From contig OZ242374.1 in the NCBI GenBank assembly GCA_965209055.1, positions 1,120,001 through 1,184,000 on the forward strand: a DNA stretch of 64,000 nt. The letters run 5' to 3'. Numbering within the stretch: position 1 is the first letter of the stretch; each line of letters begins with the position of its first letter. Below the pieces are notes generated by a model that saw only the letters and a program-made list of their open reading frames with translations, made no database searches and was not told the origin of the DNA. Shown here piece by piece: positions 2,159 through 36,854 of this stretch. This DNA comes from Acidobacteriota bacterium. GTDB taxonomy: Bacteria > Acidobacteriota > UBA6911 > RPQK01 > JAJDTT01. A program made the translations under genes and the position numbers.

Positions 2159-2176
2159 GCCCCGTCGCCTGCCCGT

Positions 2177-5932: not shown

Positions 5933-6125
5933 CTACTGGGTGAGTGAGGGAACCGACGGAGCGGATGGCTCGACAATGAGGACGCCCCGCGCCAGCCCGA
6001 AGTTAAGATCCGGCCACGCCTCCTTGATCTTCTTCAACTTGCGGAGCGACCTCTTCCGAGAGTTATTGGCGGCCGCTTTGTCACCGGCCTTGGCGGGGTT
6101 CACGCCAAACTGGCGGTAGAAGTTG
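5933..6125 (-). pseudogene. C-terminal remnant of a plasmid RepA (RepA_C-like) replication protein
   Basis: FYRQFGVNPAKAGDK...LRKLKKIKEAWPDLNFGLARGVLIVEPS resembles RepA C-termini as I recall them; no N-terminal part. Confidence 0.55.
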
Positions 6126-6232
6126 CTGCCGGGTCCTCGCCCTGGAGGACTTGAACGCCGACGTTGATTTGCTTGAGCCGTGGTAGGATTCGCACCACGG
6201 CGAAGAACCCGGATCCAGAAAGGAGGAGATGC

Positions 6233-7348: not shown

Positions 7349-7390
7349 AAATACAGGACCAATCCCCTATCTCATCTGGACAGAGTAACG

Positions 7391-7472
7391 GATTTCCAAT
7401 CGCCCGTTCTTGCGTCGCTACGGTGAAATGCGAAGATCGGCGGTTGGGAAACCGCCGCCCCGCCCCCCCCCC
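7391..7472. repeat. REP doublet, first palindrome truncated by element 1
   Basis: GATTTCCAATCGCCC lacks its left GGGC arm; followed by CGGCGGTTGGGAAACCGCCG. Confidence 0.85.
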
Positions 7473-23604: not shown

Positions 23605-23783
23605 GGGGGGGCGGGGGCGGGGGCGGCGGTTTCCCAACCGCCGAATCCCGAGCAGCAGGAGAACAGGAGCGATGCCGGGCGATTAGGAAATCGCCCCTCC
23701 GAAGGAGAACACGCGCAGTACCGGGCGATTAGGAAATCGCCCTTCCGAAGGAAAACACGCGCAGTGCCAAGCGATTAGAAATC
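23605..23783. repeat. REP cluster upstream of RAYT; last palindrome interrupted by element 2
   Basis: GGCGGTTTCCCAACCGCC, two GGGCGATTAGGAAATCGCCC, then a truncated GCGATTAGAAATC. Confidence 0.9.
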
Positions 23784-23833
23784 CTTTACTCTGTCCAACG
23801 GAGTCATGGGATTTATCCTGTCTTTTCAACAAG

Positions 23834-24940
23834 TTATCCTGATACTCCTCTCAAATTGTTCCCCTTGGCTCTTACCCGTTGCCTGTTTGTTGCCTGTTGC
23901 GTTTGGGAGTCTTCGTTAGCCTGTGCCTCCCGAATGCTCTGGAGCGCATGGGAACTGACGTACCCGGCGTAGCGCATAGTCGTGCTGATCGCCGAGTGTC
24001 CCATCAACTTCTGGACCGTTCTCACGTCCACACCCTGCATCAGCCAGTGGCTGCAGCGGAATCGTCTCAGATCGTGAAATCCGACCTTCAAGCCGACCCT
24101 CTCGCCAGCCCGGCGCAGTGGCATGTCGGGATTCACCCATCTCGTCCCGGTCCGGCTGTTGACGAAGACGTAAGGGATGTTCAGGTAGCGAACCAGTCCA
24201 GCCAGATATCCGGTGGCATACTTCGAGATCGGAATCTCCCTCGGCTCGTCGTTCTTGGTGAGTTCCACCCAGAGTAATCCGCGCCCTAGGTCCACCCGTT
24301 TCCAGGTCAGCGACAATGCTTCTCCCTTTCGGATGCCCGTCTCGCCGATCACTGCAATCATGGCTTGCAGGTAGGGATTGTCCGCCGCCTCGACGAGGTC
24401 GCGGAACTGTTGAACCGTCAAAGGCCGGAAGACCTTCTTGGGCTCCTTCAGTTTGGGGAACCGAACCAGCGGGTGCGTGTCCACCTCTCCGCACTCCAGC
24501 GCGTAGGAAAACAGCTTGCTGATGGCGGCAATGGCGCGGTTCACCGTGGCCGGCGCGACCTGTTTCTTCCTCTGGGCGACGTAGCGGTGCAGGTCTTTGC
24601 GTTGGAACTCCTTCAGGGGAATGTTCCCCAGCATGGCATTGAGGCTCTTGAACGAACCCTCATAGCTCCGCCAGGAGCGCATGCGAGGTTTGCAATACTC
24701 CTCGAGAAATCGCTCGTAGAAGCTCCGGACCGTCCAGACGGTGCGTTTCCCACCGGCGAGCTCCCTCTTGAGCTGCTTCCAGGTGCCGTCCAGGATGCTG
24801 GACTCGATTCGTGTTTGAAGCGCCTGTGCGCTCCGGTAGTTGGGGGCGTACATTCGGAGCCGACCGGATCCGTTCGGCCAGTACTTGCTGACGACGAAAC
24901 GTCGTCTCCCCCGGCGATCCTTTACCTTGTAGATGCCCAT
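23834..24940 (-). CDS. Tyrosine recombinase/integrase (copy 2)
   Basis: Highly similar to 6233-7348; catalytic residues intact. Confidence 0.95.
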   Translation of the reverse strand: MGIYKVKDRRGRRRFVVSKYWPNGSGRLRMYAPNYRSAQALQTRIESSILDGTWKQLKRELAGGKRTVWTVRSFYERFLEEYCKPRMRSWRSYEGSFKSLNAMLGNIPLKEFQRKDLHRYVAQRKKQVAPATVNRAIAAISKLFSYALECGEVDTHPLVRFPKLKEPKKVFRPLTVQQFRDLVEAADNPYLQAMIAVIGETGIRKGEALSLTWKRVDLGRGLLWVELTKNDEPREIPISKYATGYLAGLVRYLNIPYVFVNSRTGTRWVNPDMPLRRAGERVGLKVGFHDLRRFRCSHWLMQGVDVRTVQKLMGHSAISTTMRYAGYVSSHALQSIREAQANEDSQTQQATNRQRVRAKGNNLRGVSG

Positions 24941-25057
24941 GCATCTCCTCCTTTCTGGATCCGGGTTCTTCGCCGTGGGACGAATCGTACCACGGCGACA
25001 GAGATTCGACGTCGGCGTTCAGGTTCTTCAGAGCGAGAACGCGGTGGCGACTTCTAG

Positions 25058-26246
25058 GGAAGGTCTGATTAAGTCGAGTCAGCGTTCTGCACGATAATTC
25101 TTCCATCATCACTGCATGGAGGATAGATGATGTCGCAACGAACGTTCGCAGATCTGGAATACGACGGCAAGAAGCGGGTGACCCGTCGGGAGAGATTTCT
25201 GGCCCGGATGGACCGGTTGATTCCATGGGAGCAGTTGGAAGCCCGGATTCGGCCCGTTTACCCGAAAGCGGGACGGGGACGGCGTCCCTACCCGCTCTCG
25301 ACGATGCTTCGGATCCACTGCGTGCAGCTGTTTTACAACCTGAGCGATCCGGGGATGGAGGATCTGCTCTATGAGGTGGAGTCGGTGCGGCGGTTCGTGG
25401 GCCTGAAGCTCACGGGGCCGCTGCCGGACGAGACGACGATTCTGAAATTCCGTCATCGGCTGGAGGAGCATGGTCTGGGGGAGGCGCTGTTCGAGGAGAT
25501 CGGTTCTCACCTGCAGCGGCAAGGCCTGCGGCTGAGCCGGGGGACGATCGTGGACGCGAGTATCCTGGCGGCGCCTTCCTCGACCAAGAACAGGGAGGGG
25601 GCGCGGGACCCGGAGATGCATCAGACGAAGAAGGGAAAACAGTGGTATTTCGGAATGAAGGCCCACCTGGGGGTGGACGCCCAGACGGGGGTGGCGCACA
25701 CGGTGGTGACGGCGCCGGCTAACGAGCATGACGTGACGCGAGCCGGTGAGTTGCTGCACGGCTCGGAGTCTCAAGTTTGGGGGGATTCGGGATACCAGGG
25801 AGTGGGAAAGCGGTCGGAGAATCGAGATCGGCCGGTGGATTGGCAGGTGATGATGAAGCCGGGGAAGCGTTGGCGGCTGCCACCGGAGAGTGAGGCGGCG
25901 TTGGCCGAGCGGCGCAAAGCGTCGGTTCGGGCCAAGGCAGAACATGTATTCGGGTACCTGAAACGGCATTTCGGCTACGCGAAGGTGCGCTACCGGGGGC
26001 TGGCGAAAAACACCCAACGGATCTATTTGCTGGTGGGGTTCGCCAATCTGATGATCGCCGAGCGCTCTGGCGTGAACGCCTGATCCGGGCGCGGGAGAGG
26101 TGCGTCGAGATTCGGGGAATCAGTCTGAGAATGGGGGCACCCAGAGCCTTGCCAGGGTGGTACTCCTCATAATGAAGGTTTGGACACCGCAAAGCCGAAA
26201 CAATAACGGCTCTCACGTCCCTTGAATCGACTTGTTCAGACCTTCC
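25058..26246 (+). mobile_element. IS5-family element (copy 1)
   Basis: TIRs GGAAGGTCTGATTAAGTC / GACTTGTTCAGACCTTCC; CTAG target duplication. Confidence 0.95.
25127..26083 (+). CDS. IS5-family DDE transposase
   Basis: PDETTILKFR, TIVDAS, WYFGMKAH and GDSGYQG motifs. Confidence 0.95.
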   Translation: MMSQRTFADLEYDGKKRVTRRERFLARMDRLIPWEQLEARIRPVYPKAGRGRRPYPLSTMLRIHCVQLFYNLSDPGMEDLLYEVESVRRFVGLKLTGPLPDETTILKFRHRLEEHGLGEALFEEIGSHLQRQGLRLSRGTIVDASILAAPSSTKNREGARDPEMHQTKKGKQWYFGMKAHLGVDAQTGVAHTVVTAPANEHDVTRAGELLHGSESQVWGDSGYQGVGKRSENRDRPVDWQVMMKPGKRWRLPPESEAALAERRKASVRAKAEHVFGYLKRHFGYAKVRYRGLAKNTQRIYLLVGFANLMIAERSGVNA

Positions 26247-26710
26247 CTAGTGCTAGTTTGGGATGAGCCCCCCATAACTGCCTCTCGCGATCATTACGCA
26301 GTTGGTCCTGTGTCGGGACTTCCACCGAATACAACAGTCCGAAACACACCGCAGGCGTAGGGTAGCTCCCACGTCCATTCGGACGGACAGGTAGGCTCTT
26401 CAACTACCCAATTGAGGAATCGTTGCAGGACCGACTCCCATCCGGGGGTTTGGACGATCTTAGGTGACGCCGGGTTAGGGGAGAGTAGAAAAAAGTTTTT
26501 GCCCGCCGTGACTTCCGACGTCATATTTCAAATCGAAACAAACTAGACAGATAGTCCCGAAGAAAATACAAAATAGTCGGGTGAGAAGCCCAATGGCCCT
26601 GGAGAATACCGGGAAGTCGAACCCAGAGGTGGGAAGGTGTCGAGCCCTCGCGATATGACGATTGAGAAGGACGATACGCTTCTGCCTCCGACACAAGAGC
26701 CGGGAAGGCA

Positions 26711-27463
26711 GTGGAAGTGAACAGGCCCGCCGAAACCGTGAGGAAAGCCTACGTCACATCGGAAGTCGCTGAAGTACACCTTGAACCTTCGGACGATGCG
26801 CCAGTGGTGGTTCGTTTGTACAAGCGAGAACTCGTGGATGTCTTCGAAGAATCAGGCGAATGGGCCAGAGTGTCCCACTATTACGACCATTTTTGTGACG
26901 GTCGAATGCTCGCTCGGTGGATCAAGGATTCATGCCTGGGGTCGGAAAGACCCGCACCACCGAAACACGGATTACCCAATGACGCTTTGGGGAACGCACT
27001 TGCCAATTCGGACGATGTTGAGAGGTACTGGAAGCGGTTTCACCAAGGAGCGAAACGTGCAATGGAGAGAGGTTTGGCGTCTGTAGAGCATTTCATCGAG
27101 TGCGGCGGATGGATACGGTCTGGTACGGAAGGCTTCTACTTTGTTCACACCGAGTCACGCGTCCGGGGCCGAATCTACGTACATGGGCCAACCGGCAAGA
27201 TGGCCCAATGGCATCCTTGGATGGACGACAAACGAGCTTCCGAATACCTGTATCAGATACAGGATCGGAAATGCGCATTGTGTGAAGTCCCGTTCCCGCA
27301 TAGGAACCTTGAGGTAGACCACATCGTTCCGAAGAAGGTGGGGCGTAACGACAAACTCGCCAATCTCCAGCTTCTCTGTCCAGCATGCAATCGTCTCAAG
27401 GGAGACAGACCGATGGATTGGGCTGTAGGTCAGGTGCGTGATCTTGGAATCGTCAGAGAATAG
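26711..27463 (+). CDS. SH3-like domain plus HNH endonuclease
   Basis: CALC...EVDHIVP...NLQLLCPACNRLKG; N-terminal VDVFEESGEWARV. Confidence 0.8.
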   Translation: MEVNRPAETVRKAYVTSEVAEVHLEPSDDAPVVVRLYKRELVDVFEESGEWARVSHYYDHFCDGRMLARWIKDSCLGSERPAPPKHGLPNDALGNALANSDDVERYWKRFHQGAKRAMERGLASVEHFIECGGWIRSGTEGFYFVHTESRVRGRIYVHGPTGKMAQWHPWMDDKRASEYLYQIQDRKCALCEVPFPHRNLEVDHIVPKKVGRNDKLANLQLLCPACNRLKGDRPMDWAVGQVRDLGIVRE

Positions 27464-27601
27464 GGTGGCAGATAAGCCGACACCAGCACCGAGGGTTCCG
27501 CCCGAACTGGATGCTGCCGTAGACGCGGTGCTGATATTCAGGAAATCGTGAGGGAAGTGGGCTCCCGAACAGCCGAGACAGGATCTCCTTCAGCCAAGTG
27601 G

Positions 27602-30454
27602 TCATCGCGACACCGGGATCACCGGCAAGGTCGTAAAGATCCGGTTGTCGGGATCCATTTCCAATGCAACTCCGGTAAACCGCCCCTCGTCCGGGGCACT
27701 GCAGCGCACCACTCCCACGAAGTCAGACGTATCAGTCTCGAATATCTCATCAATGAACTTGGCTACTTGACCGTTGCCTGGCAGCGGGATCTCTTTCTCT
27801 TCCAGCACGGCACCCTTTCGCATCAACTGGCAGGTCAGTGTCATCGGGTCCGGTTCCAGGTTGCGGATGGCCGCGCCGGTATTGATTCCTCCTGCTTGGC
27901 GGCGAGCTGGAAAGACGGCAGCTGGGACTGATTGGCTGGCGCCGACTCCCGCCACACCGATGGCCGGAGCGTTGAAGCGCAGGACCCCACCGAGCGGGCC
28001 GTCAGAAACCACTCGTACCGATCCAATCCTCAACCTCCCTTCCCCAGTGGTTGATATCGTCCGCTCGCCCAGAGGCTTGATCTTCGTCCTGATGGTCAAA
28101 ACCCCTTCGTCTGTGAGTTCCAGATCGCCCGTCAAGTTCACCACTGAGTCGCCGGCGATGGTATTGCCCTTGGGATCGAAGAAGGAGAGAGTCGGGGTAG
28201 CGTCCGCACTGGACACGTTCACCAGCACCACCTCGGAAGAAATGGATTCTCCGTTGGCGAAGTGCGCAAAGTCCAGGCTCGCCGCCTGCTCTTCGGTCGC
28301 CACAGGCACGAGCGGCAACGTGGTGAAGATCCGATTGTCAGGATCCATCTCCAGAGCCACTCCGGTGAAGATTTCGTCGTTCGGAGCAGTGCAACGAACC
28401 GAGCCCACGAAGTCTGATGTATCGGTCTTGGTGAACAACTCCTGGATGAACTTGGCCGTCTGCCCGTTGCCGTCCAAAGGAATGTCCTTCTCTTCCAATT
28501 CCGTGCCGTCTTGCATCAATCGGCAACTCACTACGATCGGGTCTTCTCCCAGGTTCCGGATCGCCGCGCCGGTGTTGATTCCGCCCTCTTTGCGGCGCGC
28601 TGGAAAAATGGCGTCCCGGACAGGTTGGCTGGCGCCTACCCCGGCTACCCCAATTTCCGGAATGTCAAAGCGCAGGACCCCACCGATAGGACCGTCTGCC
28701 TCCACCCTCACGGACCCAGTCACCAACTCCCCTTGACCGCGGGTCGATATCGTCAGCTCCCCCAAGGGTTCCATCTTGGTTCGGACGGAAATTGCTCCGT
28801 CTTGTTCACTCCCCAAGTCTCCCCTGAGATCCACAATCGACTCTCCGCGAATGAGATGTCCCTGTTTGTTGTAGAAGGAGATGGTGGCCCGGATCGGCGC
28901 AGCGCCCACATTCACCAACACCAAGTCGGAGGTGATGGAAGCCCCGTTGGCAAAATGGGCGAAGTCCAAACCCGGCATGGGCGTGGATTCCGTCGTGGCC
29001 TCAGCGCCAGCGCCCTTGCTGTTCACTGCCCTCACCTGAAACTCATAGGACGTCCCATTGGTCAGACCCGTGATGGTGATGCTGCGCGCAGTGGCGCCGC
29101 CCTCGACTTCCATCCAGGTGCCCCAGCCGGCACCCGACTCGCGATAGCGGACATCGTAGTTGAGGATCGGGGAACCACCGTCATTCGCCGGCTCATTCCA
29201 CCGGAGTGTCACGGCCCCATTGCCGCCTCGGGCAGACAATGACGGGGTTCCCGGAACCGCGCCTGGCGTCTGGTTGACCATGGACGGCTCACCATCACCG
29301 ATGTCGTTCACGGCCCGCACTTGAAAGGCATACTCGATCCCGTTGGTCAGACCGGAGATGGTCACTCTGGTTGCGCTCGATCCTCCAGAGACTTCCGTCC
29401 ATTCGCTGTAACTGCTATTTCCGCCGCCGGCTCTATAGCGGTACTCGTAGCGGAGGATGCTGGAGCCACCGTCGGCCGCTGCATTCCAGCTCAAGGTGAT
29501 GCTTCCGTTACCCGCTGCGGCCATCAGTCCCACCGGTGCACCAGGAACAGAAGCCGCGCCCAAGCAGTTCAGTTCGGCCTCGCCGCCAGCGAGGAGCGTC
29601 TCAAGCGCATCACGCTCCGCCGGGTCGACACTCAACTCGTATTCTTGCTTCACGGCAATCACGCGAGCTGCGAACCAGGCGCGGTGTCGGGCCGGCGTCC
29701 AGTCGGCGGCATCCCGGTCACTCTTTTCCGACCGGTTCACCGTCGAGTCTGCGATCGTCAGGTTGTCGAGGTCGCTCGCGATGTCCCGGCGCCTGTCGTC
29801 GGCGATCCCGCTGTCGTGCGCCTCCGCCAGGGCGACGATGTGCTCGATGTCCGTTGCAGCGGTCCCCGCCACCGTAATGTCGAACGCAATGCAGGAATAC
29901 GGCGTATAGACTTGCCCGTCTTTCTTCATGGTCGCTGGCAGCGCCGCGATGATGTCGTCTTCCAGGCGTGTGTATCCCGATCCGTAATCATCGCGATCGT
30001 AGCCGTCGCGTGACCGCTCCGCGCAGACCTTCAGGCCACGCCAAGTCTCTGCATCCGCCGGGCATCCCGTGGACTGCGGATCATCGGTTCGTTTTTTTGG
30101 AATGTACCCTCTGGGGTTCGAGGATGAGTCACAAGCGATGTCGTCGTTGTCCGTGTCGCTCGACCGCTGCCGCTCAAGCCACTCGTAGATGATCCCGGTG
30201 CCGTCACGGTTGTCCTTGTATGCCGGCAACCGCAGCCCCTCATCGCGGTTCAATGCTTCAGAGCAGGTCAGGTCCCCGTTGCCGTTGCCGTCCCAGTAGG
30301 CGAACTCATCACGCGATTGTGCCCCTGCTGAAGGACTAGGCCCCAACACGAGAGCCGCGGTCATCAGGGCCATGATTCTCGGTTTCCAGCGGCCTGAGAT
30401 GTTTCGGGGATTTCCGCAGCCGGCCGGCGAGGTTTCTTGTATCTGACTGTTCAT
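27602..30454 (-). CDS. Secreted DUF1524/HNH-like nuclease with two FN3 domains and two C-terminal beta-rich repeat domains
   Basis: DIEHIVALAEAHDSG..NLTIA..VNRSEKSD; FN3 motifs (GLTNG.EY.FQVRAVN); two LDFAHFANG repeats. Confidence 0.8.
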   Translation of the reverse strand: MNSQIQETSPAGCGNPRNISGRWKPRIMALMTAALVLGPSPSAGAQSRDEFAYWDGNGNGDLTCSEALNRDEGLRLPAYKDNRDGTGIIYEWLERQRSSDTDNDDIACDSSSNPRGYIPKKRTDDPQSTGCPADAETWRGLKVCAERSRDGYDRDDYGSGYTRLEDDIIAALPATMKKDGQVYTPYSCIAFDITVAGTAATDIEHIVALAEAHDSGIADDRRRDIASDLDNLTIADSTVNRSEKSDRDAADWTPARHRAWFAARVIAVKQEYELSVDPAERDALETLLAGGEAELNCLGAASVPGAPVGLMAAAGNGSITLSWNAAADGGSSILRYEYRYRAGGGNSSYSEWTEVSGGSSATRVTISGLTNGIEYAFQVRAVNDIGDGEPSMVNQTPGAVPGTPSLSARGGNGAVTLRWNEPANDGGSPILNYDVRYRESGAGWGTWMEVEGGATARSITITGLTNGTSYEFQVRAVNSKGAGAEATTESTPMPGLDFAHFANGASITSDLVLVNVGAAPIRATISFYNKQGHLIRGESIVDLRGDLGSEQDGAISVRTKMEPLGELTISTRGQGELVTGSVRVEADGPIGGVLRFDIPEIGVAGVGASQPVRDAIFPARRKEGGINTGAAIRNLGEDPIVVSCRLMQDGTELEEKDIPLDGNGQTAKFIQELFTKTDTSDFVGSVRCTAPNDEIFTGVALEMDPDNRIFTTLPLVPVATEEQAASLDFAHFANGESISSEVVLVNVSSADATPTLSFFDPKGNTIAGDSVVNLTGDLELTDEGVLTIRTKIKPLGERTISTTGEGRLRIGSVRVVSDGPLGGVLRFNAPAIGVAGVGASQSVPAAVFPARRQAGGINTGAAIRNLEPDPMTLTCQLMRKGAVLEEKEIPLPGNGQVAKFIDEIFETDTSDFVGVVRCSAPDEGRFTGVALEMDPDNRIFTTLPVIPVSR

Positions 30455-30743
30455 GAGCCCGTCAATCTAACACAGGGTCCGGTGAGGGACGCTGCCACAT
30501 CCTCTCCCTGATGGACTGCGAGGCTACCACAGGCGGAAAGCGAGAAAATCCCGGATTCTAGAAAAATTCGAGCCCGTGAGAGGCCCCAGAATCGACGATC
30601 TCCCTTGATCCAGGGGTAAGGGCCTTCAGGCGTTGTCCCAGCGACTCGCGGCGAACCGGTAGGGAAGATCGCCCAGGACCTTTTGCTAGACTGCCGGAAG
30701 GATGCAACCCCCGAAGTCCGGAGCTTGAGGCCAAAGACAGAGC

Positions 30744-31067
30744 TTGACGTCCCCATTGGGGAGTCCACGAACACCCCCAATGAGGGTGTTGGGGCCACTG
30801 TTCCTCCCTTGGGTGGGAGAGGCAATCCGGGATGAAGAGGTGGCCGTGATCTTCCTGAAGGAATTCTGGTCTCAGATCGTAGGGGATCAGTCGGCGGAAT
30901 CGACGGTGCCGCTGCGTCTGCGAAAGTGCACTCTGGAGATCGGCGTCTCCGGCCGCGAATGGGAGCGGGTGCTCCAGGGGATGGCTCAGCCCTTGATGGC
31001 CAAGGTCAATGAGTTCTGGAGCCGGTCGCTGGTTCGGCGGCTGGATTTCCAGGTGGTCGATCCCTGA
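30744..31067 (+). CDS. DUF721/DciA-like protein
   Basis: W.QIVG...T.PLRLR...L.IGV...W...L......LMAKVN pattern. Confidence 0.6.
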   Translation: MTSPLGSPRTPPMRVLGPLFLPWVGEAIRDEEVAVIFLKEFWSQIVGDQSAESTVPLRLRKCTLEIGVSGREWERVLQGMAQPLMAKVNEFWSRSLVRRLDFQVVDP

Positions 31068-31124
31068 CCAGGGGAGCGCTCGGGCTGAGGGTGGCGGAGA
31101 GTGCCATCCTTGTCTTCTGTCGGC

Positions 31125-31712
31125 TCAGCGCCGACGGCAATCCTCTTTGTTCACTCGCAGGTACTCTTGCCGAAACCTAAGGATGAGGGAGTTTAGCGGT
31201 GCAAGGACGAACGACGCGCCGGTGAAGCGAAGCGCTCCAGGCGCTCCGGGGAGCACATGCCCTACTTGGTGAGCCCGCCAGACTGCCCCCAGGCGGTTGC
31301 TTGGCACTACCCCCCGCCCCCCCTTGTGGTACTCCACTGATACGTTGAACCCAGAACCAACGACGTGAGCGCTCACGTATAGAACGGACCCGTCTGTCTT
31401 GGTTCGGTCATAAGAATCCGAGTAGATGCCAACTGGGCGCAAGTGCGTCACCGCCGCAAGCCAGAGGCGATGCTCGGTTAGACCGATTCTCTTCGCATCG
31501 TTGCTCAAGCGTTTCACCACGACCGCCATGGGGCGGCAGGCGTTGTACAGCCTTCTCCGGTCGTGGTCGTTAATATGCTGGGCCTTGATGGATCCGGGTT
31601 GAATTACCGCGAAAACAGCGAGTGCAACGAACCAAGTTGGGAGTCTGCCAATCAGGAGATTGCGGTAACTCATGCGGTGAAATCCTACTACACCCTCTCC
31701 CGAGGCCGGCAC
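31125..31712 (-). CDS. Exported hypothetical protein
   Basis: Signal-like segment, LYNACRPM...EYLRVN; remnant paralogue at 1740-1805. Confidence 0.6.
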   Translation of the reverse strand: MPASGEGVVGFHRMSYRNLLIGRLPTWFVALAVFAVIQPGSIKAQHINDHDRRRLYNACRPMAVVVKRLSNDAKRIGLTEHRLWLAAVTHLRPVGIYSDSYDRTKTDGSVLYVSAHVVGSGFNVSVEYHKGGRGVVPSNRLGAVWRAHQVGHVLPGAPGALRFTGASFVLAPLNSLILRFRQEYLRVNKEDCRRR

Positions 31713-31766
31713 TGCTGCGTTCGTAACGCTTTACGGATATCATAAAGGTGGCTACCCTGACGCTCT

Positions 31767-32045
31767 ATGATCCGAAGCTTCAGTGACCGAAGTACCCGGC
31801 GCTTCTTCGAGGGCCATCGGGTGAGGGCGTTCCAGGGATTCGCGGATCAGGCTGTGCGACGTCTCACCCTGTTGGACAACGCGGAGTCCCTCCGGGACCT
31901 GGCCGGGCTGCCAAGCAACCGCCTGGAAGCGCTTCGCGGCAACCGGACCGGCCAGTACAGCATTCGGATCAATGCCCGGTGGAGAATCTGTTTCCGTTGG
32001 GGAGAGGATGGCCCCTACGACGTCGAGATCGTAGATTATCACTGA
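31767..32045 (+). CDS. higB: HigB-like (RelE/ParE superfamily) toxin
   Basis: MIRSF...PSNRLEALRGNRTGQYSIRINARWRICFRW...EIVDYH. Confidence 0.92.
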   Translation: MIRSFSDRSTRRFFEGHRVRAFQGFADQAVRRLTLLDNAESLRDLAGLPSNRLEALRGNRTGQYSIRINARWRICFRWGEDGPYDVEIVDYH

Positions 32046-32055
32046 GGAGGTCGAG

Positions 32056-32397
32056 GTGATGAGCTTCAAAAATGGAATGCGCCCGGTGCACCCGGGAGAA
32101 ATCTTGCGGGACGAGCTGGATGCGCTTGGTATGTCGGCCAATGCGCTGTCAAAAGCGCTGGACGTGCCCGTGAATCGAATCACGGCGATCCTGAGTGGGC
32201 AGCGGGGTGTGACGGCCAACACGGCATTGCGTCTGGCGCGTTACTTTGGGACGACCCCGCAGGTCTGGCTGAACCTGCAGAAGACGTGGGAGCTACGGCG
32301 GGAAGAGATCAACGCTGGGCGCCTGATTGCCGAGCGCGTTCAGCCCCGGCAAACGATGTTGCCGGGAGAAAAATATAGAACCGATGCCCGTTCCTGA
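32056..32397 (+). CDS. higA: HigA antitoxin
   Basis: PVHPGEILRDE, HTH, ALRLARYFGTTPQVWLNLQ. Confidence 0.92.
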   Translation: MMSFKNGMRPVHPGEILRDELDALGMSANALSKALDVPVNRITAILSGQRGVTANTALRLARYFGTTPQVWLNLQKTWELRREEINAGRLIAERVQPRQTMLPGEKYRTDARS

Positions 32398-32462
32398 CCA
32401 ATGGACATCAATATTCGACCGTGAGAGGCTGACAACACCCCTCGGGAAAAGGAGACTCCATC

Positions 32463-33572
32463 ATGGATTTCATTGACAAGCTCAAAGCGCTGTCTGTCCG
32501 CGCCCAAACTCATGCTGCCCACGCCCAGACCGAAGAAGCGACCAAGACCGCACTCGTTCTCCCATTCTTGAATGTTTTGGGATACGACGTCTTTAACCCT
32601 ACGGAAGTCGTCCCAGAATACACCGCCGACGTGGGCCAAAAGCGGGGGGAGAAGGTGGATTATGCCATTTTGAAGGACGGAGCACCCATCATCATTCTGG
32701 AGTGCAAGCCTGTGAGGTCCGATTTGAACTCAGAGAATGCCTCACAGCTTTACCGCTACTTCACAACTACAGAATCTCGCTTTGGGGTCCTCACGAACGG
32801 AATGGTCTACAAATTCTATTCTGACTTGGAAGAGCCGAATAAGATGGATCCCAGGCCCTTCCTGAAATTCGACCTGTCCAATTTCACTCCCAATACCGTG
32901 GAGAACCTAAAGCGGTTCACCAAAGACTCTTTCGATCTAGAAGACTCCATACGGGCCGCCACAAATTTGAAGTACACCACGGCCATCAAACGAATTCTGG
33001 CAGACCAGCTCAGGCGGCCCTACGAGGACTTTGTGCTGTTTATTCTGGGTCAGGTTTACAAGGGGGTGAAAACCAAGAGCGTCCGGGAAAAATTTGTGGA
33101 TTTGACCCAACACGCCTTTCGTGAGTTCATCAACGATCGGGTCAACGACCGGCTGCAATCAGCCCTGGAAAATGAGCCTCCCCCTGAACCTTCCGTGGAT
33201 GATGAGCCTTCCCCTGAGCCATCTTCGGAGACAAAAGAAGGGCCGCTCGAAATTGCGCGGAAGCCTGGAATCATAACTACGGAAGCGGAAATCCAAGCCT
33301 ATTCCATCGTGAAATCCGTCTTGGCTGAAGTTGTAGATCTGGACCGGGTAACGCTTCGGGATCTCAAGTCTTTCTGCAATGTCCTGCTAGACGACAGCTT
33401 GCAGCGACTGATTTGTCGTTTCCGTTTCGATTCTGAGAATAAGTCCGTTGGGGTGCCCAACCCCAACTCGGAGGAGGTCCGGTTCCCCATTGACTCCCTC
33501 AACGATATTTACGGTTTGAAAGATACTCTCCGAGAGCGCGTCTCGTTTCTCTTGTCCAAGTTCGGTTCATGA
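32463..33572 (+). CDS. HsdR N-terminal-like restriction endonuclease domain protein
   Basis: TEEATKTALVLPFL..LGYDVFNP.EV.PE..KVDYAI..ECK..LTNG. Confidence 0.8.
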   Translation: MDFIDKLKALSVRAQTHAAHAQTEEATKTALVLPFLNVLGYDVFNPTEVVPEYTADVGQKRGEKVDYAILKDGAPIIILECKPVRSDLNSENASQLYRYFTTTESRFGVLTNGMVYKFYSDLEEPNKMDPRPFLKFDLSNFTPNTVENLKRFTKDSFDLEDSIRAATNLKYTTAIKRILADQLRRPYEDFVLFILGQVYKGVKTKSVREKFVDLTQHAFREFINDRVNDRLQSALENEPPPEPSVDDEPSPEPSSETKEGPLEIARKPGIITTEAEIQAYSIVKSVLAEVVDLDRVTLRDLKSFCNVLLDDSLQRLICRFRFDSENKSVGVPNPNSEEVRFPIDSLNDIYGLKDTLRERVSFLLSKFGS

Positions 33573-33619
33573 GAAGACGGACTCGGTGACCAGAGACGGA
33601 TTCCCGGAAGAGGCGCCTC

Positions 33620-34417
33620 GTGGAGAACAGTCGAATTCAGGTGAGCCCCACTCCTGCACACGGCCGTTTTGAGTCCTTCCTCTATGCCCTCGTAGTGTTC
33701 GCGTGTCTCCTCACTCTGCCTGTCATTTACTACGAATGGCAGGGAGTCAATTCCAGACTGTTGACTATAGCCGACTGGTGCATCTGGGCGATCTTTGTAG
33801 TTGAATACGGAGTCCTTCTGACACTTGCCCGCGACAGGAAGCGATACATCGTAGGGAACTGGCTGAACGCCGGGATCATTGTACTGTCCTTCCCCCTACT
33901 ACCAGCGATGATGGGATCTGTCCGCCTCGTTCGTCTAACTCGCCTGGTTCGACTCTTCTTGGTGGCAACCAAGGGGCTCCGCACGATGAAGGTCGTCGTG
34001 AGCCAAAAGAGTTTCGTCTATGTGCTGAGCGTGACAGCGTTGCTTGTGGTAGTGGCGGCTCAGCTTCTCCACATGCTGGAGCCCATGCCCGGAGGATTCA
34101 CGGATGGGCTGTGGTGGGCGGTAGTAACCACGACTACCGTGGGCTATGGAGATATCACACCAACGACTGCAACAGGCCGTTTTGTCGCGGTCATGCTGAT
34201 GCTGGCGGGCACGGCTCTGATCGCCACAGTTGCGGCTTCGGTGTCGGCCTATTTCGTTGGAGCCGAACGAACTGAAGAGTACGAAGATCTCAAAGCCCGG
34301 CTGAGCCGAATCGAACGCATGCTGGAGAAAAACCTCCCACCGGCCTCTGGCCAATCGACACACGCAAGAAGCCACAATGAGGGCGATCCGTCGCCGCCAA
34401 AAACCTCACGCCCGTGA
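33620..34417 (+). CDS. Voltage-gated-type potassium channel
   Basis: Six TM segments, Arg-rich S4 and TTTTVGYGD selectivity filter. Confidence 0.9.
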   Translation: MENSRIQVSPTPAHGRFESFLYALVVFACLLTLPVIYYEWQGVNSRLLTIADWCIWAIFVVEYGVLLTLARDRKRYIVGNWLNAGIIVLSFPLLPAMMGSVRLVRLTRLVRLFLVATKGLRTMKVVVSQKSFVYVLSVTALLVVVAAQLLHMLEPMPGGFTDGLWWAVVTTTTVGYGDITPTTATGRFVAVMLMLAGTALIATVAASVSAYFVGAERTEEYEDLKARLSRIERMLEKNLPPASGQSTHARSHNEGDPSPPKTSRP

Positions 34418-34648
34418 GTGGATTATGTTCTGGTCCGCGACCCGGCACTTGAGCATCTGCTCCACGGCGAGAGGCGAGAGCGCCCATTCGGTCAGCGTGC
34501 TGTAGCGTCGCTGGCCAGCCCGAGACAACGGGAAAGCCTTGGGCGCGTCCGCGAGCCCGGGTTGTTCGATGTCGGCCGCGATCCACTCATCCAGGTCGTG
34601 CCGCACTGGGACCTCCGGGGCCTTGGCCCCTTTATCCACAAATTGCAT
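34406..34648 (-). pseudogene. Degraded internal fragment of a second tyrosine recombinase
   Basis: DKGAKAPEVPVRHDLDEWI...GLADAPKAFPL...AVEQMLKCR resembles the EKGGK.REIPVRHDL region of integrases. Confidence 0.5.
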
Positions 34649-34675
34649 ACTGCCACTTCATAGAGTGTTTAAAAC

Positions 34676-35080
34676 GCCTTCCCGCCAGGGATAATTGGGA
34701 CGGGAGCGACCCTCCCAGGGGGTGTTGCGCAGATGTGAATTGCGCAACACCCCCGCGCCCGCACCGGGCAGCAAAAAGGGGGGGTCGCTCCCGTCCACCT
34801 CCATTTTCCCCGTGCGGCCACCCTGTGGCCGGAAAAATGGCCGTAACTGACTGAAACGACAAGGGATCGGGGGAGACGGACTTGTGAACCACCGGGACCG
34901 CTTTTTGTGAATCCACCCCCTTTGTCCCATTCACATCCCGGATCGGGCGCGAGACCCCCGTTGTGCCCACCCGAAACGAGTCGCCGTAGACCTTTTCGAC
35001 TGCCAAGTGCAGAACCATCTCGGCGACCGTCTCGCAACGTTCACGATGTTGCTCACCTGGTCCGAACTGATAGTCTCGGC
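34676..35080. other. Conserved structured non-coding block (copy 2, inverted)
   Basis: Reverse-complement homologue of 338-740 with the hairpins retained. Confidence 0.7.
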
Positions 35081-35565
35081 CTCCATGTGTCCATCCTGCG
35101 ACACCGGCTCGGTGGGGGGCGAACTATTGTCGGTAAAGTTCGTTACCCAGGCTGCGTTGAAGAGGGAGGAGAGCGACCGTGAGGGGACCGAAGTTAGGGG
35201 TGCAAGTCGTCTTCTCCGGCGGAGAGTTTGCGATCTACCGGGCGGAGTCGGTGAACTGGGACCGGCGGACCGGAACATTGACCCTGGAGCATTCCGGCCG
35301 ATCCTCCGTGTTCGAGCATTGGGGCGCGAGCCTCCAGGTCGTCGCCTGGCGGTGGGTCGATGGGTCGATTCAGGACCGGACCTGGAGAGTGAAGACCGGG
35401 CACGGCGGGCGCCTCTAAGGCACAATAAGTTGATCTTATTGGACCCTGTGTCCTCCTAGAGGCGCTTGGACAGCTTCTCTCGGACCGTGTTACCGGGTAG
35501 CTCACGGTGGATCCCCGCCCCCCGAGAGAACCTGAGAAACCCGCTTCCTTCCCTCAGGATGTCCA

Positions 35566-36084
35566 TTAATTCGAGTTAACGGATGTCGAAGGATCTCTGG
35601 GAGCTTTGTAGACCACGATGGCCTCGCCCTTCGTCGCGGCATCGGTCGCCGCACCCAACCCAGCCCCGATTCCGAAGCCAATGCCGGCCATCATCAGATT
35701 ACCTAGCGCATTGAGATCGTTATCCGACTTGAGGGCAAGCGCACTCAGCATAACGCCAAATCCGATCCCGCCACCGATCAGCGTTCCGTTGGCAAGTCCA
35801 TCCTCCGGTTGAGTTGTGATCGTCTCGATGTCTTCTTTGGGAATCACCGCCCGGGAGATGTTGGTCACGAGCATCAGGTCGGTATCGGAAAGATCCTCGA
35901 AATGACCCTTGATTCGATCTCCGTCCTTTGTTTCCACCGTGATGGGGACCGTCACTTTCAAGGCCGCAACCTTCTCCCATCGTCCGGGGATCACCTCCGC
36001 GTGTGCTGGCATGGAGGTCAATCCGGCAAGAATCAAGGCGAGTGATTGAATCCGGCATGTCTTCATCGTTTGGGTTATCTTCAT
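35566..36084 (-). CDS. Exported/membrane hypothetical protein with glycine-zipper-like C-terminus
   Basis: Signal peptide and GxxxG-rich helices. Confidence 0.65.
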   Translation of the reverse strand: MKITQTMKTCRIQSLALILAGLTSMPAHAEVIPGRWEKVAALKVTVPITVETKDGDRIKGHFEDLSDTDLMLVTNISRAVIPKEDIETITTQPEDGLANGTLIGGGIGFGVMLSALALKSDNDLNALGNLMMAGIGFGIGAGLGAATDAATKGEAIVVYKAPRDPSTSVNSN

Positions 36085-36401
36085 GGCGCCTCCTTCTGCC
36101 TTGGAGTAACGTCGCTTCCTGTTAGCGACTCCTTGTCAGAAAATGTGATTTTTCCGTCGGAAGTGGCTCACCGAGGCGAGCGGACGATGATCGATCCTAG
36201 GTAGTCCCCGGCGAAAAACGGCATGGAGCCGCGAAGCGCGGAAGGGCGTGTCGGCGTTCAGGAGCCGATTCGGCTGCCTGTTTGTTGCCTGTGCAGCGTG
36301 CCAAACATAGGGAGTCAACCACTTTAACGATTCGGCGAAGAACCCGTTAAGTGATTGAAAACGTTAATGTTCGTTAGTCTTTGACTGAGGGACAGTAGGG
36401 A

Positions 36402-36854
36402 TTAGAAATCGCCGCTCCTGACGAGCTTTTGCGCGGAACGGTAGGTTTCCAGGGCTTCGTCGGTCTTGCCCTCGTCGCGGAAGACGCGGGCCTTGAACAT
36501 GAGGAGCATGAACCGGTTTTCCTGTGCGTCGACGGCCTTCAAGCTGGCGTCCACCGCCTGGCGGGCCAGACCATGCTGGTCCGCGTTCAGCAGCTCCTCG
36601 CTCAGGTTCAGCACCGAGAGCGTCAGCACGCCTTCATTCTCGGCGCCGAAGCCCAGGTCCAGGATCTCCTGGATCTCCGCCACGACCGCATCGTACTCGC
36701 CCGATTCGAGCTTGAGCTGGGCGATCTCGTAGTGAGTCGCGGCCGCCGCCAGCTTGGCGTTTTCCGCCGGGTTCGACGCCGCTGCGGAAACGCCCCGGAC
36801 CGGCGCCAATCCGAAAACCAGTAGAAATACGGAAAACCGGATCAGAGCGCTCAT
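36402..36854 (-). CDS. Exported TPR-like protein; last codons overlap the att core
   Basis: Signal peptide and helical TPR-like repeats. Confidence 0.7.
   Translation of the reverse strand: MSALIRFSVFLLVFGLAPVRGVSAAASNPAENAKLAAAATHYEIAQLKLESGEYDAVVAEIQEILDLGFGAENEGVLTLSVLNLSEELLNADQHGLARQAVDASLKAVDAQENRFMLLMFKARVFRDEGKTDEALETYRSAQKLVRSGDF

What the first reader, a model, noticed from the sequence alone, without database searches (positions are those of the whole stretch)
23773..36410. Tyrosine-integrase element that uses a REP palindrome as its attachment site
Seen: an exact 11-bp direct repeat GATTAGAAATC at 23773-23783 and 36400-36410 bounds a 12.6-kb block with an integrase at one end. 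Deleting the block restores the palindrome GCGATT-AGA-AATCGC as the last unit of the REP cluster beside the RAYT gene, and the duplication keeps the stop codon of the TPR gene intact. The sister element ends at the same position of another REP (GATTTCCAATC, 7391-7401; reverse complement GATTGGAAATC), with homologous sequence up to the junction (GGACAGAGTAA.G|GATTTC). Established: tyrosine-integrase elements usually target tRNA or other single-copy genes, while REP targeting is known mainly for IS (IS110, IS3 families). Inference: a multicopy-target genomic island family that exploits RAYT-spread REPs and carries surface and defence cargo. I do not know of a description of this.
Basis: partly seen in the sequence, partly recalled or inferred. 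Interest (0 to 1): 0.92.

Follow-up and report, generated by a model that had tools for sequence, protein, structure and literature searches.

The report
Integrase islands that insert into REP hairpins
This 12.6-kb block is one of 26 copies of a mobile island whose integrase, descended from one that targets a tRNA-Arg gene, now inserts into short repeated palindromes (REPs) scattered through the genome, so it can multiply and carry defence genes with it.

Summary
GATTAGAAATC occurs only at 23773-23783 and 36400-36410. It bounds a 12,616-bp element with a tyrosine integrase (23834-24940, minus strand) at one end.

The genome holds 26 full-length copies of this integrase (88-94% aa identity). 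Each pairs with the same conserved ~158-bp far end. The elements measure 2.7-25 kb and total 261 kb, 4.3% of the genome.

All 25 assessable copies lie inside a split REP-type palindrome. Twenty have a perfect 11-bp repeat. Five have imperfect repeats that limit the shared segment to 7 bp in four copies, as expected of site-specific recombination rather than target duplication.

The integrase-proximal end keeps a relic of the 5' half of tRNA-Arg(UCU). In congeners the nearest integrases (83% and 71% identity) sit in real tRNA-Arg genes. In the tree the REP-targeting integrases form one clade nested among tRNA-targeting ones.

The exact empty site occurs in public contigs. Six of eight congeners have the flanks adjacent.

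Larger copies carry type I restriction-modification systems, Cas3-type genes and GmrSD.

Seven literature searches found no description of this. It is a new variant of a known kind. No attP circle was seen and no activity was tested.

The parts
22805..23563 (-). RAYT-like gene (Y1_Tnp). It is outside the element, and its REP cluster supplies the target.
   Evidence: Pfam PF01797, E 7.7e-7. It is one of only 2 Y1_Tnp matches in the genome. REPs lie on its upstream side.
23624..23742 (.). REP cluster: CGGCGGTTTCCCAACCGCCG (23624-23643) and two GGGCGATTAGGAAATCGCCC units (23677-23696, 23723-23742).
   Evidence: Sequence. Genome census of palindromes. All REP families share a GGAG flank.
23771..23783 (.). 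Left half of the split third REP unit (GC + GATTAGAAATC). The 11-bp repeat copy is 23773-23783. This is the integrase-proximal junction (attR in integrase orientation).
23784..23833 (-). Integrase-proximal element end. On the minus strand, 23773-23797 reads TGGACAGAGTAAAGGATTTCTAATC, a relic of tRNA-Arg(UCU) positions 17-41.
   Evidence: blastn against the genome's own tRNAs gives 22 of 25 identical to tRNA-Arg(tct). Other copies match positions 4-41. Rfam and ARAGORN call no tRNA here.
23834..24940 (-). Tyrosine integrase, 368 aa.
   Evidence: PF00589 plus N-terminal SAM-like domains. The R, HxxR and H..Y motifs are intact in 26 of 26 copies. Best NCBIfam hits are Xer-like but far below cut-off.
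23880..23893 (+). Candidate arm-type integrase site (TGCCTGTTTGTTGC) within the 3' coding end of the integrase gene, about 100 bp from the core.
   Evidence: Three matches in the window, all at element arms (23880, 36275, 7280). The core motif occurs exactly twice per element, at fixed positions, in 22 of 26 elements.
25053..26253 (+). Nested IS5-family insertion sequence (DDE_Tnp_1 + DUF772). It is a later passenger, not part of the family.
   Evidence: Pfam. Nine listed rows at 100% rounded identity in the genome: 8 outside the query stretch, including window ~51722-52918, plus this copy.
26711..34417 (.). Cargo. HNH endonuclease 26711-27463(+). 950-aa FN3 protein with a weak, sub-threshold GmrSD_C match 27602-30454(-). 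Unknown ORFs 30451-30825(-), 31125-31712(-) and 31752-32222(-). HSDR_N nuclease-like protein 32463-33572(+). K+ channel 33620-34417(+).
   Evidence: Pfam, PADLOC, NCBIfam. GC is 54-63% in the block against about 65% in the flanks.
34676..35010 (-). Conserved non-coding 'module 2' with a long hairpin (GACGGGAGCGACCCCCC...GGGGGGTCGCTCCCGTC). Present in all 26 elements. Role unknown.
   Evidence: No Rfam family. There are 66 copies in the genome, 33 of them outside these elements; in the 2 outside regions examined (6 copies) they lie beside a second integrase family.
35566..36084 (-). 172-aa ORF of unknown function.
   Evidence: No Pfam, NCBIfam or PADLOC family.
36242..36399 (.). Conserved far-end arm of the element (P' arm). 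It includes the second arm-type motif at 36275-36288 and the terminal GGACAGTAGG, which is inverted relative to the other end.
   Evidence: blastn finds about 158 bp conserved at 30 loci. Motif positions.
36400..36416 (.). Second copy of the 11-bp repeat (36400-36410) plus the right arm of the split REP. It contains the stop codon of ORF 36402-36854(-).
1..7401 (+). Sister element, 8,602 bp in total, starting 1,211 bp upstream of the window. It carries a GIY-YIG ORF 1100-1636(-), an LRR protein 2177-5725(+) and an integrase within ORF 6164-7348(+). The repeat copy GATTTCCAATC is at 7391-7401.

Best explanation
The block is an integrated copy of a site-specific integrative element. It moves by a tyrosine integrase, and its chromosomal attachment site (attB) is a REP-type palindrome.

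Proposed mechanism. The excised circle carries an attP of about 280 bp. This comprises an arm that overlaps the 3' end of the integrase gene, a core, and the ~158-bp conserved far end. Each arm bears one copy of a GCAACAAACAGGCA-type motif about 105-116 bp from the core. These are probably arm sites for the integrase N-terminal domain. The core is an imperfect palindrome. Strand exchange occurs in a 7-bp overlap (here TTTCTAA) flanked by GA and TC. In the REP, this overlap is the loop plus the innermost stem pairs, and the G+C-rich stem halves serve as the two inverted integrase-binding sites. Integration splits the REP and leaves the 11-bp identity at both junctions. Because the overlap is asymmetric, it fixes the orientation of the insert.

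Origin. The lineage descends from integrases that recombine in the anticodon loop of tRNA-Arg genes and whose attP carries the tRNA 5' half. The 11-bp core of the window element differs by one base from the tRNA-Arg(UCU) anticodon arm (GACTTCTAATC). REP hairpins resemble that arm. By switching to them, a single-site island became a multi-copy, IS-like carrier.

Shown here: the element anatomy, the junctions, hybrid junctions that limit the shared segment to 7 bp in 4 of the 5 imperfect copies, empty sites, identical copies at different loci, and the phylogeny.

Inferred: catalysis by the integrase, the role of the arm sites, the circular intermediate, how copy number rises, and whether an excision factor or module 2 is needed.
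For: 1. Copy number. tblastn finds 26 full-length integrase copies at 88-94% aa identity. All 26 keep the R, HxxR and H..Y motifs, and stops occur only in the C-terminal tail.

2. Shared ends. Each of the 26 pairs with a conserved far end. Of the 25 assessable elements, all 25 are bounded by a repeat that splits a palindrome: 20 perfect at 11/11, 1 at 10/11, 4 at 9/11.

3. Recombination rather than duplication. In the 4 copies at 9/11 (e7, e13, e16, e11), the left copy reads G-T-[7 bp]-T-C and the right copy G-A-[7 bp]-C-C. The outer positions therefore derive from attB on one side and attP on the other, and only the 7 bp are shared. e11 carries an A-clade integrase but sits in a C-type palindrome that shares only TTTCCAA.

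4. The target is a REP. GCGATT-N3-4-AATCGC has 132 copies. All palindrome families share a GGAG flank. The window site is the third unit of a cluster beside a RAYT-like gene.

5. Empty sites. The joint 23772->36400 (skips 12,627; 11 letters fit both sides) appears in one contig of run X1 (depth 20.7, side 70) and one contig of run X19 (depth 7.5, side 25). None of the 15 spanning 31-mers of that junction is in the assembly. The flanks are adjacent in G001, G002, G003, G004, G006 and G008. G004 has an unoccupied REP with core GATTAGAAGTC at the orthologous position.

6. Recent movement. e15 and e23 are 100% identical over 2,777 bp. e10 and e25 are 99.96% identical. e7 and e13 are 100% identical over 9,350 + 1,165 bp. 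Each pair lies at different loci.

7. tRNA origin. Element ends match positions 4-41 of the genome's own tRNA-Arg(tct); for example 28 of 29 nt match in e16, E 2e-10. The 83%-identical integrase in G003 abuts a complete tRNA-Arg(TCT), and its far junction carries the displaced 5' tRNA fragment. The 71%-identical integrase in G010 abuts tRNA-Arg(TCG). Relatives at 38-52% identity abut tRNA-Arg or tRNA-Leu genes. In the careful ML tree the REP clade has support 99/92, its sister is the G003 tRNA-Arg integrase (100/97), and next out is G010 (100/100).

8. Arm motif. It occurs exactly twice, at fixed positions and in the same orientation, in 22 of 26 elements.
Against: - No circular attP junction was seen. 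No 'goes back 36399->23784' joint is among the 15 joints listed, and 26 more joints were not shown.
- No excisionase-like gene is evident in the 2.7-kb minimal elements.
- The X19 joint is weak: side 25, min_likeness 90, one contig. X19 may be the window's own source sample. The joint is absent from X20 and X23.
- Target families B and C are low-copy (about 13 and 1 unoccupied sites), and none of them is shown to be mobilised by a RAYT.
- The RAYT-like gene has REPs on one side only.
- Rfam and ARAGORN do not call a tRNA at the element ends, so the relic is partial.
- At the orthologous intergenic site, 5 of the 6 congeners with adjacent flanks carry other REP types rather than this one.
- e25's right end is cut by the contig end.
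- Pairing of the largest elements (20-25 kb) with their far ends rests on proximity, and some of them may be composites.
- The tree is rooted at the midpoint only.
Confidence: 0.85

Rival explanations
1. The elements are transposon-like. The 11-bp repeats are target-site duplications made by staggered cuts at palindrome loops, as with IS that prefer REP loops. The integrase would be a passenger or would act only in resolution.
For: In the integrated state a duplication and a shared core look the same, and 20 of 25 repeats are perfect. DDE-type IS that prefer REPs are known (recalled, not tested). An IS5-family IS lies inside the window element.
Against: The minimal 2.7-kb elements contain no convincing protein-coding ORF other than the integrase, and their other ORFs were not scanned against Pfam. 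The nested IS is absent from most copies. Four copies show the same non-identical left and right repeats sharing only 7 bp, which a fresh duplication would not produce. The core sequence is specific to each integrase clade. The close relative in G003 is a classical tRNA-integrated island with a 41-nt shared segment.
Confidence: 0.05
2. The blocks are mobilised by the RAYT (HUH transposase) as oversized REPIN-like units bounded by REP halves, or were spread by homologous recombination between REPs. Integrase-mediated site-specific recombination would play no part.
For: A RAYT-like gene lies 210 bp from the junction. The REPs are abundant repeats that could support recombination.
Against: All 26 copies have the same element-specific ends inside the REP halves, at one exact position of the palindrome. 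Only one REP-flanked RAYT-like gene exists, and most elements lie far from it. Homologous exchange between 20-bp REPs would not create conserved ends, arm motifs, or a tRNA relic.
Confidence: 0.03
3. The family was REP-targeted once but is now fossil. The copies are immobile remnants, and the integrases are retained for another role or are not yet decayed.
For: No attP junction was seen. No excision factor was found. Fragments and 4 unpaired far ends show that decay occurs.
Against: All 26 of 26 integrases have intact catalytic motifs. Three pairs of copies at 99.96-100% identity lie at different loci. An empty-site contig at depth 7.5 occurs in a run whose other contigs are identical to the window, and the element's internal depth is 19-24 against 26-30 in the flanks.
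Confidence: 0.07

Closest known systems
Genomic islands integrated in tRNA genes by tyrosine integrases, anticodon-loop ('A') class, as catalogued in Islander (PMC4383910; one passage read)
   Same: Both have a tyrosine integrase at one end reading towards the junction, a crossover in a 7-nt segment flanked by a short inverted repeat, an attP that carries a copy of part of the target, and cargo between the ends. The 83%-identical relative in G003 is a member of this class. It belongs to the rarer type that displaces a 5' tDNA fragment (159 of 3,919 islands in that paper's table, against 3,760 with a 3' fragment).
   Different: The window element and its 25 paralogues are not in tRNA genes. Their attB is an extragenic, repeated palindrome, so there are many sites and many copies per genome. 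The tRNA part of their attP is a relic with no tRNA to restore.
Insertion sequences that target REPs: IS110 family such as IS621, ISPpu9 and ISPpu10; IS3 family IS1397 and ISKpn1. Names recalled. IS110, bridge RNA and REP appear together in PMC11208158, seen only in the search listing.
   Same: Both insert site-specifically into REP palindromes, use an extragenic multi-copy target, reach many copies per genome, and cause little gene disruption.
   Different: Those IS use DEDD or DDE transposases (RNA-guided in IS110) and carry no cargo. The elements here use a tyrosine recombinase with arm-type attP architecture and carry up to about 22 kb of cargo.
Integron integrase with attC sites, including the Vibrio VCR repeats once classed as REP-like (recalled)
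   Same: A tyrosine recombinase acts on a family of repeated imperfect palindromes.
   Different: Integron integrases carry a specific extra domain and act on folded single-stranded attC sites to move promoterless cassettes. The NCBIfam integron-integrase model scores 63 bits here against a cut-off of 265. Here the integrase travels with the element, and attP has long arms.
Xer-dependent elements: IMEX at dif, and pdif modules of Acinetobacter plasmids (recalled)
   Same: Tyrosine recombination at short palindromic sites that may be multi-copy. The catalytic domain here is most similar to Xer-type models.
   Different: Those elements use the host XerC/XerD and encode no integrase of their own. 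Here XerC scores 99 bits against a cut-off of 335, the element encodes its own integrase with an N-terminal extension, and the target is not dif.
Strand-biased circularizing integrative elements, which are tyrosine-recombinase elements that transpose repeatedly (bioRxiv 10.1101/2022.09.22.508988; listing and start of abstract only)
   Same: Tyrosine-recombinase elements that behave like transposons and carry cargo to several sites.
   Different: As recalled, those have several core genes and short, non-palindromic targets. A REP target and a tRNA-derived attP are not described in what I saw.

Membership tests
Tyrosine recombinase / phage integrase superfamily | Catalytic domain PF00589 with the R...HxxR...H/W...Y residues | tested here: met
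   PF00589 E 6.9e-25, above cut-off. Motifs G-I-R-K-G-E, H-D-L-R-R and G-H-S...R-Y are found in 26 of 26 copies.
Tyrosine recombinase / phage integrase superfamily | Conservative recombination across a 6-8 bp overlap flanked by inverted binding sites | tested here: inconclusive
   Hybrid junctions limit the shared segment to 7 bp between palindrome arms in 4 elements. No biochemical test was possible.
tRNA-gene-targeting genomic islands (anticodon-loop class) | Integrated within a tRNA or tmRNA gene, regenerating it and leaving a displaced fragment | tested here: not met
   There is no tRNA at either junction of the window element (ARAGORN, Rfam). The feature is met by the relative in G003.
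tRNA-gene-targeting genomic islands (anticodon-loop class) | attP carries a copy of tRNA sequence ending at the anticodon loop | tested here: met
   Element ends match tRNA-Arg(tct) positions 4-41. The window copy matches 22 of 25 nt, and e16 matches 28 of 29.
REP / REPIN (the target) | Short imperfect palindrome, extragenic, in tens to hundreds of copies | tested here: met
   Family A has 132 copies. The window site lies in a 3-unit cluster between genes. Families B and C are low-copy.
REP / REPIN (the target) | Associated with, and mobilised by, a RAYT (Y1 HUH transposase) flanked by the same REPs | tested here: inconclusive
   A Y1_Tnp gene lies beside the cluster, but REPs are on one side only. 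Mobilisation cannot be tested here.
Insertion sequence (ISfinder sense) | Encodes only a transposase (DDE, DEDD, HUH or serine) and has terminal repeats | tested here: not met
   The minimal elements encode a tyrosine integrase and no recognisable transposase. The DDE gene in the window copy belongs to a nested IS5-family IS.
Integron integrase | IntI-specific model or extra domain, with attI and attC partners | tested here: not met
   TIGR02249 scores 63 bits against a cut-off of 265, and NF011946 scores 29 against 435.
XerC/XerD | Equivalog-level match and action at dif | tested here: not met
   XerC scores 99 bits against 335, and XerD scores 86 against 330. The sites are REPs, not dif.

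The most novel reading that the evidence does not exclude
A tRNA-Arg anticodon-arm-specific integrase lineage has been retargeted to REP hairpins that mimic that arm. This would create a second tier of parasitism. REPs spread by a domesticated transposase become an expanding set of landing pads for cargo-bearing integrase islands. The islands then proliferate like IS (26 copies, 4.3% of the genome) and shuttle defence systems. Specificity would be set almost entirely by a 7-bp overlap, so it could be re-programmed by point changes. The conserved hairpin module shared with a second integrase family would be a required cis element for transfer or excision, such as an oriT or a regulatory RNA.
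Probability: 0.35. Interest if true: 0.9.

Novelty: new variant of a known kind. Interest (0 to 1): 0.8.

Why it matters
Tyrosine-integrase islands are normally confined to one or a few single-copy sites per genome, mostly tRNA genes. That limits their copy number.

Here a lineage has escaped the limit by moving to a repeated palindrome. The ancestral state is preserved both in a congener and as a relic inside every copy, so the steps of an integrase target switch can be read directly: tRNA-Arg anticodon arm, then a REP one base away, then other REP families.

The finding also links two kinds of genomic repeats that are usually studied apart, REP/RAYT systems and integrative islands. It gives a concrete vehicle for spreading restriction-modification and CRISPR-type genes in these Acidobacteriota, whose relatives and matching runs come from sponge and marine metagenomes.

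In practical terms, the system is an integrase whose site choice appears to depend on a 7-bp overlap plus a loose G+C-rich dyad. That makes it an attractive system for studying, or engineering, integrase specificity.

Tried and rejected
Is there a real tRNA at the junction? Rfam at E<=10 on window 23600-24000 found no tRNA. ARAGORN called none at any of the 26 element ends. The resemblance is therefore a partial relic, not a gene.

Rfam on window 34400-36420 found no family for module 2 or the far end. Only chance miRNA-level hits appeared.

RNAalifold on 22 distinct module-2 copies gave equally good folds on both strands and almost no compensatory changes. I therefore make no claim on whether it acts as RNA or DNA.

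I looked for an excisionase or other ORF in the minimal elements. Only R/G/P-rich, unconvincing ORFs turned up. Pfam at E<=0.1 found nothing for 8 small ORFs around module 2.

PADLOC on the 8 cargo ORFs of the window element returned only HNH-domain hits to PtuB and Cas9 models. No defence system can be named for this copy.

Reads. No attP-type 'goes back' joint between 36399 and 23784 is among the 15 joints listed, and 26 more were not shown. All runs were contigs, which drop rare variants, so this says nothing about absence. The joints 24996->34780, 25004->30566 and 34802->24518 are best read as other family copies laid on this one at 90% likeness. Depth figures cannot rank genes.

The tRNA-Arg(TCT) gene of this genome (307704-307778) is unoccupied.

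The second Y1_Tnp gene (3750831) has no flanking REPs.

G005 and G007 have about 6.6 kb between the orthologous flanks. No family far end maps there. I did not examine what it is.

Literature. Seven searches found no paper describing a tyrosine integrase with a REP attachment site. The library lacks most subscription journals. PMC11448139 matched on terms, but the find in its main text gave 0 occurrences of 'REP sequence(s)'. PMC3390384 discusses REPs and integrases separately. The VIPR preprint concerns guide RNAs that match REPs, not integration. I did not ask for supplementary files. Island catalogues in supplements could list non-tRNA palindromic targets that I could not see.

G016 is flagged as unpublished.

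Full report
**Observation**

The 11-mer GATTAGAAATC occurs exactly twice in the window, at 23773-23783 and 36400-36410. Shuffles expect 0.03 matches, and 0 of 100 reach two.

The left junction reads CCAAGC-GATTAGAAATC|CTTTACTCTGTCC. The right junction reads GGACAGTAGG|GATTAGAAATC-GCCGCTCC. Removing the 12,616 bp between the copies restores GCGATT-AGA-AATCGC. This is the third unit after two GGGCGATTAGGAAATCGCCC units at 23677-23696 and 23723-23742.

The cluster lies upstream of a Y1_Tnp (RAYT-like) gene at 22805-23563(-). ORF 23834-24940(-) is a tyrosine integrase (PF00589, E 7e-25). GC content in the block is 54-63%, against about 65% in the flanks.

The stop codon of ORF 36402-36854(-) lies in the right repeat copy, so the insertion preserves it. 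Pfam and NCBIfam assign that ORF to no family, so 'TPR' is unsupported.

The sister integrase at 6164-7348(+) is 91% identical and ends GGACAGAGTAACG|GATTTCCAATCGCCC.

**A 26-copy family**

The window is G000:C1:1120001-1184000 in a 6.08-Mb single-contig genome.

- tblastn with the integrase finds 26 full-length copies at 88-94% aa identity, plus fragments.
- A 250-bp probe from the far end of the window element finds a conserved stretch of about 158 bp at 30 loci.
- Each of the 26 integrases pairs with one far end in the expected orientation. Four far ends remain unpaired.
- Element sizes run from 2,673 to 25,055 bp and sum to 261,310 bp, which is 4.3% of the genome.
- All 26 integrases keep the R, HxxR and H..Y motifs. 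The four with an internal stop have it at residue ~360, in the C-terminal tail.

**Junctions**

One element, e25, has its right end cut off by the contig end. Of the other 25, all are bounded by a repeat that splits a palindrome. Twenty repeats are perfect at 11/11, one is 10/11, and four are 9/11.

There are three target families:

- **Family A:** GGGCGA-TTTCCAA/TTTCTAA-TCGCCC (5 elements).
- **Family B:** GGGGGA-CTGTTAG-TCCCCC, used in either orientation (16 elements).
- **Family C:** GGGGGT-TTTCCTA/TTTCCAA-CCCCC (5 elements).

Family A is a true high-copy REP, with 132 matches to GCGATT-N3-4-AATCGC. Families B and C have only about 13 and 1 unoccupied sites. All the palindrome families share the same GGAG 5' flank, so they belong to one REP superfamily.

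The four 9/11 cases are the most informative. In each, the left copy reads G-T-[7 bp]-T-C and the right copy reads G-A-[7 bp]-C-C. The outer bases therefore come from attB on one side and attP on the other, and only the 7 central bases are shared. This is the signature of conservative site-specific recombination across a 7-bp overlap. It is not the signature of a target-site duplication.

e11 carries an A-clade integrase and an A-type attP but sits in a C-type palindrome that shares only TTTCCAA. This suggests that overlap identity plus a loose G+C-rich dyad is sufficient for integration.

**attP architecture (inferred)**

Three blocks are conserved in all 26 elements: the far ~150 bp, a non-coding module of about 335 bp, and the integrase with about 120 bp upstream of it and its downstream end.

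The motif CAAACAGGCA occurs exactly twice in 22 of 26 elements, always in the same orientation. One copy is at position 116 from the far end. The other is at a fixed position about 105 bp before the near core, inside the integrase 3' coding region. In the window it lies at 23880-23893 and 36275-36288, and in the sister element at 7280-7293. I read these as arm-type sites for the integrase N-terminal domain. That reading is an inference.

The minimal 2.7-kb elements show no convincing ORF other than the integrase, so no excisionase is evident.

**tRNA origin**

I compared the integrase-proximal ends with the 68 tRNAs that ARAGORN finds in this genome. They match the 5' half (positions 4-41) of tRNA-Arg(tct):

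- e16 matches 28 of 29 nt (E 2e-10).
- e18 matches over 38 nt at 87% identity.
- The window copy matches 22 of 25 nt.

The window core GATTTCTAATC differs by one base from the anticodon arm GACTTCTAATC. The 7-bp overlap corresponds to anticodon-loop positions 32-38.

Neither Rfam nor ARAGORN calls a tRNA at the element ends, so this is a relic rather than a gene. The genome's own tRNA-Arg(tct) gene is unoccupied.

Relatives confirm the ancestral state:

| Genome | Integrase identity | What the integrase abuts |
|---|---|---|
| G003 | 83% | A complete tRNA-Arg(TCT), co-oriented with the integrase |
| G010 | 71% | tRNA-Arg(TCG), arranged the same way |
| Sister genus | 38-52% | tRNA-Arg or tRNA-Leu genes, or their 3' fragments ending at the anticodon loop |

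The G003 element is about 47 kb. Its far junction carries the displaced 5' tRNA fragment joined to a homologous far end.

In a careful ML tree of 44 rows (41 distinct), the 32 REP-targeting integrases form one clade (support 99/92). Its sister is the G003 tRNA-Arg(TCT) integrase (100/97), and next out is G010 (100/100). Target families map onto subclades, with e11 as the exception. The root is at the midpoint only.

Islander's table gives 159 of 3,919 islands with a displaced 5' tDNA fragment and 2,083 with anticodon-centred attP sites (PMC4383910; one passage read). The ancestral type is therefore a known but minority class.

**Evidence of insertion and mobility**

Flanks of the window element are adjacent in 6 of 8 same-genus genomes: G001, G002, G003, G004, G006 and G008. 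They are separated by 95-1,063 bp there, against 12.7 kb here. G005 and G007 have about 6.6 kb of something else.

The intergenic REP clusters differ between species. G004, however, has an unoccupied REP with core GATTAGAAGTC at the orthologous position next to the downstream gene.

Laying public contigs on window 23300-36900 gave a joint 23772->36400 that skips 12,627 bases, with 11 letters fitting both sides. It appears in two runs:

- **X1**, a sponge metagenome: one contig, depth 20.7, side 70. The contig differs at 14 of 501 letters over 36400-36900.
- **X19**: one contig, depth 7.5, side 25.

X19's other contigs are identical to the window. Its flank depth is 26-30 and its element-internal depth is 19-24.

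The X19 signal is weak, and the run may be the window's own source. It was laid at min_likeness 90. The joint is not seen in X20 or X23.

None of the 15 spanning 31-mers of the predicted empty site occurs in the assembly, and each flank-plus-core is unique at up to 3 mismatches. The joint therefore does not come from another locus of this genome.

Within the genome, e15 and e23 are 100% identical over 2,777 bp. e10 and e25 are 99.96% identical. e7 and e13 are 100% identical over 9,350 + 1,165 bp. Each pair sits at different loci with different flanks.

**Spread**

Integrase matches at E<=1e-60 number 28 in G000, 9 in G004, and 0-2 in the six other congeners.

Of 30 far-end junctions in G003, G004, G005 and G007, 26 abut a REP half with the GGAG flank. 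One abuts the tRNA, one abuts another element's end (a tandem), and two are unclear.

By their record titles, close relatives are Acidobacteriota MAGs. Runs holding parts of the stretch are mostly sponge or marine metagenomes, but only four runs were laid.

**Cargo**

The window copy carries:

- an HNH endonuclease;
- a 950-aa FN3 protein with a weak, sub-threshold GmrSD_C match;
- an HSDR_N nuclease-like protein;
- a K+ channel;
- several ORFs of unknown function;
- a nested IS5-family IS.

This IS matches 8 further places in the genome at 100% rounded identity. PADLOC names no defence system for this copy.

I then searched 20 large ORFs from 9 other elements. They include:

- type I R-M genes in e12 and e22 (HsdR, HsdM, HsdS);
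- an HsdS in e18;
- ORFs of matching sizes in e6 that I did not search;
- Cas3-like and GSU0054-family Cas proteins in e14;
- a DNA methylase with a ResIII helicase in e0;
- GmrSD_N in e11;
- a reverse transcriptase in e21.

The sister element in the window carries a 1,182-aa LRR protein and a GIY-YIG ORF.

**Comparison and novelty**

Mechanistically this is a classical tyrosine-integrase integrative element. What is new is the target, an extragenic repeated palindrome, together with two consequences: IS-like multiplication, and a visible evolutionary path from a tRNA anticodon arm to REPs.

As I recall, REP targeting is known for DDE and DEDD insertion sequences. Tyrosine recombinases acting on repeated palindromes are known for integron attC and for Xer/pdif. 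Neither matches this element (see the membership rows).

Seven full-text searches found no description. The library is incomplete, and I did not consult supplements.

**Verdict**

- It is a new variant of a known kind.
- Confidence in REP-targeted integrase elements is about 0.85. Confidence in the tRNA-to-REP direction is somewhat lower.
- Recombination activity, the circular form, the arm sites and the role of module 2 remain untested.

Noticed in passing
window 34676-35010 (-); also L099:2063-3854 and L100:1795-3713: A conserved, structured, non-coding module of about 200-335 nt with a long hairpin has 66 copies in the genome, 33 of them outside the REP-targeting elements. In the 2 outside regions examined (6 copies) the copies lie directly downstream of a second, unrelated integrase family (Arm-DNA-bind_3 + Phage_int_M + PF00589). 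No Rfam family matches. Its role is unknown; it could be an oriT, a regulatory RNA, or a MITE.
   Followed up: partly
genome 3841235-3841319 and 5203736-5203820 (outside the window): ARAGORN-nt 'tRNA-Val' genes here. These are the module-2 hairpin, so they are probably false tRNA calls.
   Followed up: partly
window 25053-26253 and about 51722-52918: An IS5-family IS (DDE_Tnp_1 + DUF772, 318-aa ORF) gives 9 listed rows at 100% rounded identity, 8 of them outside the query stretch plus the query copy. One copy is nested in the element, and a second lies elsewhere in the window.
   Followed up: partly
genome 463,000-485,000 (outside the window): This region holds two unpaired element far ends (474734, 484587), five module-2 copies, an integrase fragment and a tRNA-Leu(taa). 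It looks like a graveyard or tandem array of decayed elements.
   Followed up: no
genome-wide: There are six tRNA-Leu(taa) genes, one of them (2104898) inside element e5. More distant relatives of the integrase target tRNA-Leu genes, so these extra copies may mark other islands.
   Followed up: no
L046 (G004:C1, around 410820-410983): A far end directly abuts the integrase-proximal end of another element. This is a tandem arrangement, as seen for tRNA-targeting islands.
   Followed up: no
genome end 6076041-6077182: Element e25 is cut about 25 nt before its core by the end of the single contig, and the contig start is unrelated coding sequence. The assembly may have been closed or trimmed inside this repeat.
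   Followed up: partly
G005:C1:2526556-2533180 and G007:C2:4658876-4665582: About 6.6 kb lies between the orthologous flanks in these two congeners. No far end of this family maps there, so something else is inserted at the same REP-rich intergenic site.
   Followed up: no
genome 782738-782999, next to element e1: A degenerate second copy of the RAYT-like gene (tblastn fragments at 54-66% identity) lies immediately beside the integrase-proximal end of element e1.
   Followed up: no
B-clade integrases: Elements whose overlap is CTGTTAG and those with its reverse complement CTAACAG are intermixed in the tree. The orientation of the overlap has therefore flipped several times within the B clade. 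How this happens is unexplained.
   Followed up: no
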